The position numbers are program-made. Below, piece by piece: positions 18,001 to 21,000 of a stretch of DNA of 64,000 nt. The DNA lies in NCBI RefSeq assembly GCF_056746865.1, contig NZ_CM163382.1, one strand, 5' to 3'. Positions within the stretch are counted from its first letter, which is position 1; each line of letters starts with the position of its first letter.

Positions 18001-21000
18001 TAACTAAGTTGTCTGCATCATCAGTTATAGCCAGATAATTGTTATTGTTAACTGACCAGATAATTAAGGGAACCTATGGAAATAAAGACACGGAGAGAAA
18101 CCAGGCAGACGTTGGCGCAGTGGTTTGAAGAGAAGGGATTTCAGAAGGGATTTCAGAAGGGATATAAAGAGGGACTCCGGAAGGTAAGGCTGGCACAGCG
18201 TCTTCTGAGTAAAGGAATGTCTCGGGAAGACGTTGCAGAGATGGCAACTTTATCTCTTACAGAGGTTGATAAGCTAATTAACTCTAACTAAGTTGTCTGC
18301 GTTATGAATTATCGCTTACAGATAACATGGCAATGAATAACTGGCGCCATCAGCCGTAGCGCCAGTTAAGTATTACACCAGCTCGACTATTTTGTTGTCG
18401 ATCAGGCGGGCATCGCCAAGCCAGGCGGCTACCAGAATCACTGCACGTTTGCTGTTTTCAGAGACCTCCAGCAAGGTGTCGGCATCACGAATCTGAATAT
18501 CATCGGCGCGGAAGCCTTTTTCATTCAGTTCTTGCCCGGCAATAGTAATAATTTCATCGAGATCCCGTTCGCCAGCCTGCAATTTGTCGGCAATCGAACT
18601 TAAAACCTTGTACAGACCAGGCGCAATTTTGCGTTGTTCCGCCGTCAGATAACCGTTACGGGAACTCAGCGCCAGACCGTCTTTGGCGCGCATAATTGGC
18701 ACACCGACAATCTCAATATCAAAGCCCATATCAGCAACCATTTTGCGGATCAGCGCCAGTTGCTGAAAATCTTTTTCACCGAAGCAGGCGATGTCCGGCT
18801 GGACCAGATTGAACAGCTTGCTGACGATAGTCGAAACGCCGCGAAAATGTCCCGGACGGCTGGCACCTTCCAGCATGGTAGAAAGACCGGGAACATCAAC
18901 ATAGGTGTGGGTTTCTGTACCGTTCGGGTAGATCTCTTTTACCGAAGGGGCGAAAACTAAATCCACTTTGCGCTTGTTCAGCTTTTCGCAGTCCTCTTGC
19001 AAGGTCCGTGGATAACGTGCCAGATCTTCCGGGCGGTCGAACTGCATCGGGTTAACGAAAATACTGACGACGACCACATCGGCGCGGGCTTTGGCTTCGT
19101 CGACCAGCTTCATATGGCCGTCGTGCAGGTTACCCATGGTGGGCACCAGCGCCACGCGCTTACCTTCCATACGCAGGCGGCGGATTTGCTGACGCAGCAG
19201 CGGCAGGGTTTCGATAATTAACACAACGTCACTCCTTAATGGAAACTGTGTTCTTCGCCCGGATAAACGCCGGACTCCACTTCAGCCATATACTGCCGCA
19301 CAGCCGCGCGGATGTCGCCCGTTTCGGCGAGGAAATTTTTGGCGAATTTAGGAATATGACCGCCGGTAATGCCGAATGCGTCGTGCATCACGAGAATTTG
19401 CCCGTCAGTGACGTTGCCTGCGCCAATGCCAATAACCGGGATCGCCAGTGCTTCGGTAATACGTTTTGCCAGTTCAACCGGCACGCACTCCAGTACCAGC
19501 AGTTGTGCCCCAGCAGCTTCTAAAGCTAATGCATCGCTGAGCAGTCGATCGGCCGCTTCATCGCCGCGCCCCTGGACTTTGTAGCCACCGAAAATATTCA
19601 CTGACTGTGGGGTTAAACCTAAGTGACCACAAACAGGAACGGCACGTTCGGTCAGCATTTGTACGGTTTCTACCAGCCACTCACCGCCCTCAATTTTGAC
19701 CATGTTGGCACCGGCACGCATGACAGTCGCGGCGTTTTCAAAGGCTTGTTCTGGTGTGGCATACGCCATAAACGGCAGATCAGCCAGCAGCAGACAGTTT
19801 GGCGCACCGCGACGTACAGCAGCAGTGTGGTAGGCGATATCGGCAACGGTAACTGGCAGAGTTGAGTCATGCCCCTGAACCGTCATGCCCAGTGAATCGC
19901 CAACCAGCATGACGTTAAGCCCTTCATCGGCAAACAGTTTTGCGAAGCTATAGTCGTAAGCGGTGATGGTCGCGAAACGTTTTTTTTCTTGTTTGCATTT
20001 TTGCAATGAAGCAATAGTGGTTGGTTTCATAACGTATCCTGATAAGTAATGTCGTGCTGTCTGGCATTTTATCAGTCACATTGGTGGGGGCAATGATTTA
20101 TCAATTACAGCACCGCCAGATGATGGCGGTGCGGTTAAACCTGTTACTCGTAGGTGACCTGGAATGTACTGGTAGCCTTAAATCCGCCGGGTTTCACAGT
20201 TGCATTACCATCGCGTTTTAATGTTGCCTGAAATTTCAGGTCCTGGGTTGTAGTACGACCGTTGGCATTAGGATAATCTGGGTTATAAATTCCATTGTTT
20301 TCTCCAGGATCATCTTCAGCATCGTTATAGCTTGATGTCTCATCATTTGGCTTAAGCGTGAAATTTTGTGAATTTTTGCTGTTGGGTAACCCTTCAATAA
20401 GTACTCCGGCACCTTTTGCATCATCGGTTCCTGTCAAAGTATTACCAAGCAACAGAGGATTATTCACTCCTACTACATTAGATTTTAGTTTTGTTTTAAT
20501 ACTGCTTATACGAACACAATTTTGTAGCGAGATCTGAAAATTAACAGGTGTTGCAGAATCTGAGGTGATCTGTCCAACAGTATATTCCCCGAGATTTACG
20601 GTTGATCGCGTTACGCTCTCACCCAAAAGGATAGACGTAAAGCATGTTGGCAGTTGGATATTGATGTCTGTTAAATTAAAATTGATTTTTAGCATCTTAG
20701 ATGCACTTACATTTGGAACCCCTGGCCCTTCATTTGCGAATGAATACAAATAATCACCAGTATGTTTTAATTGCACGTTAGTATTTGGAGCAGGGTTAAA
20801 ACTGCTGTCGGTATAGAATTTGGATTTGCCCCTATATTTCCAGACACCTGTTATCACTTAACCCATTACTGGCCCGCTGCCGTAGATATTCCCGTGGCGA
20901 GCGATAACCCAGTGCACTATGCGGATGCCATTCGTTATAATGCTCGAACGCCTCTGCAAGGTTCTTTGCTGCCGTTAACCCGTCTGGTTTAGGCATGATA

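What the first reader, a model, noticed from the sequence alone, without database searches (positions are those of the whole stretch)
18031..18065. 10-bp direct repeat CCAGATAATT flanking the start region of the small ORF
CCAGATAATT occurs twice (18031-18040 and 18056-18065) about 25 bp apart, in the spacer between the rpnC stop and the downstream small ORF. It could be a duplication scar or a paired regulator-binding site controlling the small ORF.
Basis: seen in the sequence. Interest (0 to 1): 0.25.

Follow-up and report, generated by a model that had tools for sequence, protein, structure and literature searches.

The report
Junction repeat beside rpnC's extra antitoxin
A 10-base sequence that occurs twice in the short gap between the E. 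coli rpnC nuclease gene and an already-described mini-copy of its tail is real and old, but it looks like a leftover of the rearrangement that made the mini-gene, and some lineages have collapsed it to one copy without losing the gene, so it is probably not a required control site.

Summary
CCAGATAATT is present exactly twice (18031-40, 18056-65), 25 nt apart, in the 68-nt spacer between rpnC and a 71-codon ORF. That ORF is the published rpnC_Ss, a free-standing second copy of the RpnC tail/antitoxin (Zhong et al. 2023).

- **Copy 1** is the 3' edge of the duplicated block. Homology between the two post-stop flanks ends at CAGATAA.
- **Copy 2** opens a 52-nt leader of unknown origin that carries the RBS and start codon.
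- **Distribution:** the spacer occurs in 1,555 of 5,426 complete E. coli genomes and in E. marmotae and other Escherichia lineages, so the pair is old.
- **Not required:** one non-E. coli Escherichia lineage (four assemblies, two different alleles) has lost exactly 25 nt, one copy plus the interval, and keeps both genes intact. Other loci have 22-nt spacing or substitutions in copy 1.
- **No regulatory signal:** no convincing promoter, terminator, RNA structure or Rfam match.
- **One lead:** copy 1 plus the interval resembles a Fur box, 14/19 here (unremarkable) and 17/19 in E. marmotae, but the match is destroyed in loci that keep the gene.

It is an ordinary feature of a known locus, of low interest.

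The parts
17063..18007 (+). rpnC (yadD), full-length Rpn PD-(D/E)XK nuclease/toxin, 314 aa in this strain
   Evidence: ORF. Pfam PF04754 E=3e-87. TIGR01784 E=2e-83. RefSeq annotation of identical DNA in H1. Lies between panD and panC.
17770..17788 (+). RBS-like GGGAGGGGAG plus ATGATG inside rpnC: predicted start of the intragenic small protein RpnC_S (MMTLAQWFEE...)
   Evidence: Sequence read. Assigned by analogy with the K-12 rpnC internal start reported by Zhong et al. 2023. Not tested here.
17788..18038 (+). Duplicated block, copy 1: rpnC tail (TLAQWFEE, 12-nt/4-aa repeats, HTH-like end), stop codon and post-stop flank up to CAGATAA
   Evidence: Repeat families D1-D3, alignment, and local alignment of the flanks ending at CAGATAA.
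18031..18040 (+). 10-mer copy 1 (CCAGATAATT). Its CAGATAA core is the 3' edge of the duplicated post-stop flank and corresponds to CAGATAAC at 18319-18326.
   Evidence: Varies in E. marmotae (CCAGATAATG), L037 (CCAGAGAATT) and L046 (ACAGATAATT).
18041..18055 (+). 15-nt interval GTTATTGTTAACTGA. It is possibly the decayed continuation of the old flank up to the 5' arm of the terminator (AACTG).
   Evidence: Alignment to the flank after the small ORF: p=0.12 for the E. coli form and p=0.02 for the E. marmotae form. 3-nt deletion variants in L013 and L039.
18056..18065 (+). 10-mer copy 2 (CCAGATAATT), the first bases of the leader and directly upstream of the RBS
   Evidence: Invariant in all two-copy loci examined.
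18056..18107 (+). 52-nt leader of unknown origin: copy 2, RBS AAGGGA (18066-71), ATG (18076) and the codons for MEIKTRRETRQ
   Evidence: No significant homology to rpnC upstream sequence (p 0.5-0.7), to the rest of the window, to other E. coli loci or to plasmids and phages.
18076..18291 (+). Small ORF, 71 aa = rpnC_Ss, the free-standing second copy of the RpnC small tail/antitoxin
   Evidence: ORF. Matches the C-terminal end of TIGR01784 (E=3e-10). Named and described by Zhong et al. 2023. RefSeq label 'RpnC/YadD family protein'.
18108..18325 (+). Duplicated block, copy 2: tail of the small ORF, stop codon and post-stop flank up to CAGATAA
   Evidence: This flank is the one found directly after rpnC in genomes that lack the small ORF.
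18338..18368 (.). Perfect 10-bp inverted repeat (TAACTGGCGC / GCGCCAGTTA) between the small ORF and the panC stop. It is probably a shared bidirectional terminator, and it is the only such hairpin downstream of rpnC.
   Evidence: Inverted repeat I4. No terminator-like site in the spacer. The terminator function is inferred.
18034..18052 (-). Fur-box-like 19-mer (GTTAACAATAACAATTATC, 14/19 to the consensus) covering copy 1 and the interval. A lead only.
   Evidence: 14 sites score 14/19 or better in this window. The same position scores 17/19 in E. marmotae, 10/19 in L013 and 9/19 in L020.

Best explanation
The two CCAGATAATT copies are a structural by-product of the rearrangement that placed a second, free-standing copy of the RpnC tail gene (rpnC_Ss) downstream of rpnC.

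- Copy 1 is inherited sequence: the last recognisable stretch of the rpnC post-stop flank that was duplicated along with the tail.
- Copy 2 lies at the junction, at the start of a 52-nt leader that supplies the small gene's ribosome-binding site and start codon.

The most likely way to get a sharp-edged 10-nt identity 25 nt from a breakpoint is a short templated copy of nearby sequence, or use of a pre-existing microhomology, during break repair or template switching. That step is inferred.

The pair is not needed to keep or express the small gene. The spacer has no terminator, so the small gene is most simply transcribed by read-through from the rpnC and internal rpnC_S promoters (inferred), and translated from its own RBS.

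The one demonstrable behaviour of the pair is that it is a slippage or recombination substrate. Lineages exist in which exactly one repeat unit of 25 nt has been lost.
For: Shown:
1. The small ORF plus its flank is a diverged copy of the rpnC tail plus flank (91% over 91 nt, 84% over the 31 nt around the stop codon).
2. Flank homology ends exactly at CAGATAA inside copy 1.
3. Genomes lacking the small ORF carry the second flank directly after rpnC. L008 is an rpnC::rpnC_Ss tail fusion, as the literature describes.
4. The leader that starts with copy 2 has no detectable source.
5. The two-copy spacer is present in 1,555 of 5,426 complete E. coli genomes, in E. marmotae and in two further Escherichia lineages.
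6. L020, L021, L025 and L038 lack exactly 25 nt (one copy plus the interval) and have intact rpnC, RBS and small ORF.
7. In a panCB tree this single-copy lineage groups with E. coli and L018/19, while the two-copy E. marmotae and L022/23 branch further out. The deletion is therefore derived.
8. The L038 and L020 alleles differ at 13 of 105 positions around the junction, against 5-6 between L038 and E. coli two-copy alleles. This suggests two separate deletions.
9. No promoter or terminator was predicted in the spacer, the RNA fold has z=0.1 and there is no Rfam match.
10. The independent K-12 rpnE-ypaA duplication works with a junction that has no spacer and no such repeat.
Against: - The way copy 2 arose is not demonstrated. 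No donor for the leader was found, so a templated insertion, a pre-existing microhomology and pure coincidence (about 0.001 for this spacer) cannot be told apart.
- Copy 2 is invariant in every two-copy locus examined, and the whole stretch 18056-18107 is more conserved than the 5' half of the spacer (0-1 against 6 differences between E. coli and E. marmotae). Copy 2 may therefore be under selection, for example as part of the translation-initiation region.
- The E. marmotae version of copy 1 plus the interval matches the Fur consensus at 17/19. That is hard to dismiss as chance.
- All single-copy loci share one panC lineage, so a single old deletion followed by recombination is not excluded.
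- No expression data exist for this spacer.
Confidence: 0.62

Rival explanations
1. Paired operator: the two 10-mers are the two half-sites of a regulator that controls transcription of the small ORF.
For: An exact 10-nt identity with sharp edges is unlikely by chance within this spacer (20 of 20,000 shuffles). Both copies are retained in most lineages, including ones about 10% diverged in panCB. 54 of 58 metagenome loci keep both copies exact.
Against: Four assemblies keep intact genes with a single copy. Spacing is 22 nt rather than 25 nt in L013 and L039. Copy 1 carries substitutions in E. marmotae, L037 and L046. No sigma-70 promoter passes the scan, and the best relaxed match is 9/12 with a 19-nt spacer, falling to 8/12 in the commonest E. 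coli allele. The spacer is conserved as a whole, so conservation does not single out the 10-mers. The analogous rpnE_Ss gene is expressed in K-12 with no spacer at all.
Confidence: 0.06
2. Fur-type operator: copy 1 (which contains GATAAT) plus the interval form an iron-responsive Fur box over a weak promoter whose -10 is that GATAAT. Copy 2 is incidental.
For: The position scores 14/19 to the Fur consensus here and 17/19 in E. marmotae. All three substitutions that separate the two versions lie in the direction of the consensus in E. marmotae. A TTGTCT-19 nt-GATAAT pair would put the box over -10 to +6.
Against: 14/19 or better is reached by 13 other sites in this 64-kb window, many of them in coding sequence. 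The match is destroyed in L013 (10/19) and in the single-copy loci (9/19), which keep the gene. The promoter is weak and has non-optimal spacing. In L020 the same -10 would sit 11 nt from the ATG and remove the RBS from the transcript. I tried only the Fur consensus, prompted by the GATAAT, so this is a post-hoc match. The Rpn papers read here do not mention Fur.
Confidence: 0.07
3. Copy 2 is conserved because it is part of the translation-initiation region of rpnC_Ss (an A/U-rich stretch directly 5' of the RBS), and its identity with copy 1 is a coincidence with no mechanistic meaning.
For: Copy 2 abuts the RBS AAGGGA (18066-71). Positions 18056-18075 are invariant between E. coli and E. marmotae, whereas 18008-18055 differs at 6 of 48 positions. 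Substitutions seen in natural variants fall in copy 1 (3 loci) and not in copy 2 (0 loci). Ten or so equally good 10-mer pairs occur in ordinary sequence in this window.
Against: The local chance probability is about 0.001. The numbers of variants are too small for a statistical contrast between the copies. After the 25-nt deletion the retained copy occupies the same position next to the RBS, so this reading and the main one are not mutually exclusive.
Confidence: 0.2

Closest known systems
rpnC_Ss, the free-standing second copy of the RpnC small protein downstream of rpnC (Zhong et al. 2023, PNAS, PMC10400941)
   Same: Same locus and same gene. [quoted passage not shown] All of this was seen here.
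   Different: The paper's main text does not describe the spacer, the junction or any direct repeat. The supplementary figures were not available to me.
rpnE-ypaA (rpnE_Ss) tandem duplication in E. coli K-12
   Same: An independent case of an Rpn tail gene duplicated directly downstream of its parent, and the protein has been detected experimentally.
   Different: The junction is clean. The second unit starts at the RBS (AAAAGGAGAGATTAATG) immediately after the rpnE stop, with no spacer, no retained flank, no foreign leader and no 10-mer-type repeat.
Deletions between short direct repeats by slipped mispairing or RecA-independent recombination (classical examples in lacI; from my own knowledge)
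   Same: The loss of exactly one repeat copy plus the intervening 15 nt in L020, L021, L025 and L038 is the expected product.
   Different: The mechanism is inferred from the product only. Deletion frequency and genetic requirements are unknown.
Fur box (GATAATGATAATCATTATC; consensus from my own knowledge)
   Same: Copy 1 contains GATAAT. The 19-mer at 18034-18052 matches the consensus at 14/19, and at 17/19 in E. marmotae.
   Different: It is not conserved in all loci that keep the gene, there is no convincing promoter, and no binding data exist.
Target-site duplication flanking an insertion sequence
   Same: Direct repeats of about 9-10 bp with sharp edges.
   Different: Only 15 nt lie between the copies, with no terminal inverted repeats and no coding capacity. 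Zhong et al. also found no target-site duplications around rpn genes.

Membership tests
rpnSs-type free-standing Rpn small (antitoxin) gene (Zhong et al. 2023) | Lies immediately downstream of, and on the same strand as, its parent rpn gene | tested here: met
   rpnC 17063-18007 (+) and small ORF 18076-18291 (+), 68 nt apart. The same arrangement is seen in all related loci.
rpnSs-type free-standing Rpn small (antitoxin) gene (Zhong et al. 2023) | Sequence derived from the C-terminal tail of the upstream Rpn protein | tested here: met
   91% DNA identity over the last 91 nt and a shared TLAQWFEE segment. Matches positions 213-273 of 273 in TIGR01784.
rpnSs-type free-standing Rpn small (antitoxin) gene (Zhong et al. 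2023) | Copy number of the four-amino-acid (12-nt) repeats varies between strains | tested here: met
   GFQK occurs once or twice, and there are other repeat sets, giving 57-81 aa forms.
rpnSs-type free-standing Rpn small (antitoxin) gene (Zhong et al. 2023) | The protein is made and neutralises the cognate RpnL toxin | not testable with these tools
   Expression was shown only for RpnE_Ss in K-12. Nothing has been shown for RpnC_Ss.
Paired operator for a dimeric regulator | Both half-sites are retained wherever the regulated gene is retained | tested here: not met
   L020, L021, L025 and L038 have a single copy and intact genes.
Paired operator for a dimeric regulator | Fixed centre-to-centre spacing | tested here: not met
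   25 nt in most loci and 22 nt in L013 and L039.
Paired operator for a dimeric regulator | Overlaps or adjoins a promoter | tested here: inconclusive
   No site in the standard scan. The relaxed scan gives only 9/12 with a 19-nt spacer. No transcription-start data exist.
Paired operator for a dimeric regulator | A protein binds the sites | not testable with these tools
   Needs EMSA, footprinting or ChIP.
Fur box | Strong match to the 19-bp consensus | tested here: inconclusive
   14/19 in the window, where 14 sites in 64 kb score as well or better. 17/19 in E. marmotae.
Fur box | Conserved across orthologous loci | tested here: not met
   10/19 in L013 and 9/19 in L020. The position is deleted in L021, L025 and L038.
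Fur box | Fur binding and iron-dependent expression | not testable with these tools
   No data found. K-12, the usual Fur ChIP strain, lacks the spacer.
Target-site duplication of a mobile element | The direct repeats flank an element with terminal inverted repeats and/or a transposase | tested here: not met
   The interior is 15 nt (GTTATTGTTAACTGA).
Decayed 25-nt tandem duplication | Similarity between the units extends beyond the 10-mer | tested here: not met
   3 of 15 matches after the 10-mer (sequence, my count). The repeat finder reports only 10 nt.
Structured RNA element or intrinsic terminator in the spacer | Stable or conserved secondary structure, or an Rfam match | tested here: not met
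   MFE -13.9 kcal/mol, z=0.10. No terminator-like site in the spacer. No relevant Rfam hit.

The most novel reading that the evidence does not exclude
Copy 1 plus the interval is, or was ancestrally, a genuine Fur operator (17/19 to the consensus in E. marmotae). It would sit over a weak promoter that gives the free-standing RpnC_Ss antitoxin its own iron-responsive transcript. That would tie the balance between the RpnC toxin and its extra antitoxin to iron status, a condition under which several phage receptors are induced. In E. coli the site would be decaying.
Probability: 0.05. Interest if true: 0.5.

Novelty: already known. Interest (0 to 1): 0.12.

Why it matters
It matters little in itself. 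The gene arrangement is published, and the repeat is an ordinary junction feature.

The modest value is anatomical. It pins down where the duplicated block ends (at CAGATAA) and shows that rpnC_Ss was not made by a clean tandem duplication like ypaA. Instead it carries a 52-nt leader of unknown origin. The arrangement also predates the split between E. coli and E. marmotae, or was exchanged between them.

These details are useful to anyone testing the suggestion of Zhong et al. that RpnL nucleases themselves seed such rearrangements. The Fur-like site in E. marmotae is a cheap, testable lead.

Tried and rejected
1. **Simple 25-nt tandem duplication.** Rejected, because identity stops at 10 nt (and my count from the sequence).
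2. **Mobile-element footprint or target-site duplication.** Rejected, because the interior is only 15 nt.
3. **Leader as a decayed copy of rpnC sequence upstream of TLAQWFEE.** No significant alignment (p 0.5-0.7). The only resemblance is RBS plus ATG (GGGAACCTATG against GGGAGTCTATG), and it is not significant.
4. **Leader imported from elsewhere.** No match elsewhere in the window, in other E. coli loci or in phages. The only 'plasmid' hits are 0.8-4.9 Mb records carrying the same sequence, which I take to be mis-filed chromosomal DNA.
5. **N-terminus MEIKTRRETRQ embedded in a full-length Rpn protein.** None among the listed homologs. Every protein that has it is a small free-standing form from Escherichia.
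6. **RNA structure or riboswitch.** z=0.1. The only Rfam hit is a sub-threshold fluoride match elsewhere.
7. **Promoter.** None at standard stringency.
8. **Species-representative genome scan.** It returned only one relevant locus, L025. The other three hits are chance matches in unrelated MAGs.
9. **L038 as an independent deletion in an E. coli background.** I assumed this at first. panC showed that L038 belongs to the same lineage as L020, so independence now rests only on the allele comparison.
10. **The figure of 2,780 genomes covering at least 80% of the first query.** It overcounts carriers, because both tail copies of the query align to the single tail. The spacer-specific count is 1,555.

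Full report
**Observation.**
The window is the E. coli panD-rpnC-panC region. rpnC is at 17063-18007 (+), a 71-codon ORF is at 18076-18291 (+), and panC is at 18373-19224 (-). CCAGATAATT occurs exactly twice, at 18031-18040 and 18056-18065, and nowhere else in the 64 kb. Only 20 of 20,000 shuffles of the 68-nt spacer produce any exact 10-mer repeat. Against that, the window holds 16 distinct repeats of 10 nt or more within 50 nt (about 3.3 expected), and about ten of them lie in ordinary sequence.

**What the small ORF is.**
The ORF is a diverged copy of the RpnC C-terminal tail. It has the TLAQWFEE segment, 12-nt (4-aa) repeats and an HTH-like end, with 91% identity over the last 91 nt. The copy includes the stop codon and the flank TAAGTTGTCTGC. 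It matches only the C-terminal end of the Rpn family model TIGR01784.

Zhong et al. [quoted passage not shown] They report that it derives from RpnC, that it parallels ypaA/rpnE_Ss, and that it can be lost by deletion or by fusion. In that work RpnS proteins are antitoxins of the RpnL nucleases, and the number of 4-aa repeats sets specificity. The paper's main text says nothing about the spacer or a direct repeat.

**Anatomy of the junction.**
- Genomes without the small ORF (K-12 and others) carry, directly after rpnC, the flank that in this window follows the small ORF.
- L008 is a fusion: its rpnC ends with the small ORF's tail.
- A local alignment of the two post-stop flanks ends exactly at CAGATAA, 18005-18038 against 18289-18325. 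Copy 1 of the 10-mer is therefore the 3' edge of the duplicated block.
- The 15-nt interval may continue that old flank as far as the 5' arm of the terminator (AACTG), but the support is weak: p=0.12 for the E. coli form and p=0.02 for the E. marmotae form.
- Copy 2 begins a 52-nt leader (18056-18107) holding the RBS AAGGGA, the ATG and the codons for MEIKTRRETRQ.
- That leader has no significant similarity to the rpnC sequence upstream of its own TLAQ codons (p 0.5-0.7), to the rest of the window, to other E. coli loci, or to plasmids and phages.
- No full-length Rpn protein among the listed homologs contains that N-terminus.

So this is not a clean tandem duplication. The independent rpnE-ypaA duplication in K-12 is clean: its second unit starts at the RBS directly after the stop codon, with no spacer.

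**Distribution and variation.**
- The spacer is present in 1,555 of 5,426 complete E. coli genomes, always at this locus and at 93% identity or better.
- The small protein and the same gene context occur in E. marmotae and in three other Escherichia lineages that are 6-10% diverged in panCB.
- Both copies are exact in E. coli, L018/19 and L022/23.
- E. marmotae has CCAGATAATG as copy 1 and a different interval.
- L013 and L039 have a 3-nt deletion in the interval, giving 22-nt spacing.
- Among 58 metagenome loci retrieved with a pattern that does not include the repeat, 54 have both copies exact. Three have a substitution in copy 1, none has one in copy 2, and one (L038) has a single copy.

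**Single-copy loci.**
L020, L021, L025 (a species-representative genome) and L038 all lack exactly 25 nt, which is one copy plus the interval. All keep rpnC, the RBS and the small ORF intact. All four share one panC lineage. That lineage groups with E. coli and L018/19 in the tree, while the two-copy E. marmotae and L022/23 branch further out, so the single-copy state is derived.

Around the junction, L038 differs from L020 at 13 of 105 positions but from E. coli two-copy alleles at only 5-6. That favours two separate deletions, or recombination, without proving it. None of the 5,426 complete E. coli genomes has the single-copy form.

**Tests of a regulatory role.**
- The standard scan finds no sigma-70 promoter and no terminator in the spacer.
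- A relaxed scan finds only TTGTCT-19 nt-GATAAT, at 9/12. It falls to 8/12 in the commonest E. coli allele and would remove the RBS from the transcript in L020.
- The spacer RNA folds no better than shuffled sequence, z=0.10, and there is no relevant Rfam match.
- The only hairpin is the perfect 10-bp inverted repeat at 18338-18368, after the small ORF. The simplest inference is therefore co-transcription with rpnC and rpnC_S, with independent translation.
- One lead remains. Copy 1 plus the interval resembles a Fur box. The match is 14/19 here, a score or better reached by 13 other sites in the window, and 17/19 in E. marmotae. It is 10/19 in L013 and 9/19 in the single-copy loci. This was a post-hoc match to the only consensus I tried.

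**Conclusion.**
The 10-mer pair is best read as a junction by-product of the birth of rpnC_Ss. Copy 1 is inherited flank. Copy 2 was created or captured at the breakpoint; a short templated copy or a microhomology is the likeliest route, and that step is inferred. The pair has since behaved as a slippage-prone direct repeat.

Copy 2 may be conserved because it adjoins the RBS. The locus itself is already known, and the repeat is an undescribed but ordinary detail of it.

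Noticed in passing
L015-L017 (E. marmotae / Escherichia sp.), about locus 1455-1473; corresponds to window 18034-18052: The spacer between rpnC and the small ORF contains GTTAATAATAATCATTATC, a 17/19 match to the Fur-box consensus. 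The E. coli version scores 14/19. The three substitutions separating them all move toward the consensus in E. marmotae.
   Followed up: partly
L010 (about 960-1090) and L011 (about 1850-2055), O157-type and related E. coli: An extra imperfect-palindromic element of roughly 130-200 nt sits between the rpnC/panC terminator hairpin and the panC stop. L011 has a further internal insert. From memory it resembles an ERIC/IRU intergenic repeat, which I did not test.
   Followed up: no
L008 (E. coli 98210), locus about 780-860: There is no small ORF, but rpnC ends with the small ORF's tail (…ATLSLTEVDKLINSN) and its flank. This is an rpnC::rpnC_Ss fusion made by deletion between the two tails, as Zhong et al. 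predict.
   Followed up: partly
L006 (E. coli 23CRST029): rpnC is annotated as frameshifted, and the small ORF is annotated as a partial pseudogene although it looks intact. This could be a case of toxin decay with the extra antitoxin retained.
   Followed up: no
window 17816-17904 and 18131-18163: There are 12-nt (4-aa) repeat arrays in the rpnC tail (RQEV-type, long in this strain: RpnC is 314 aa here against 298 aa in L038) and in the small ORF (GFQK twice here, once in L003-L005). The two genes carry different repeat types and numbers. Given the repeat-number specificity reported by Zhong et al., this raises the question of whether RpnC_Ss can neutralise this strain's RpnC_L at all.
   Followed up: partly
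L038 (metagenome contig, 37x coverage): Its panC is 97-100% identical to the L020/L025 lineage, but its spacer and leader alleles are E. coli-like. This indicates recombination between Escherichia lineages at the rpnC locus.
   Followed up: partly
window 52011-52063: A 16-nt exact direct repeat, TCTCCGTTCTGCCAGG, occurs 36 nt apart, with an overlapping 10-nt repeat at 21-nt spacing. Outside the rpn tail arrays it is the longest short-range repeat in the window.
   Followed up: no
PLSDB records NZ_CP141089.1, NZ_CP134663.1 and CP054241.1 (hits H93-H95): These 'plasmid' records of 0.8-4.9 Mb carry this chromosomal rpnC spacer sequence and are far too large for plasmids. They appear to be chromosomal sequence filed as plasmids.
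   Followed up: no
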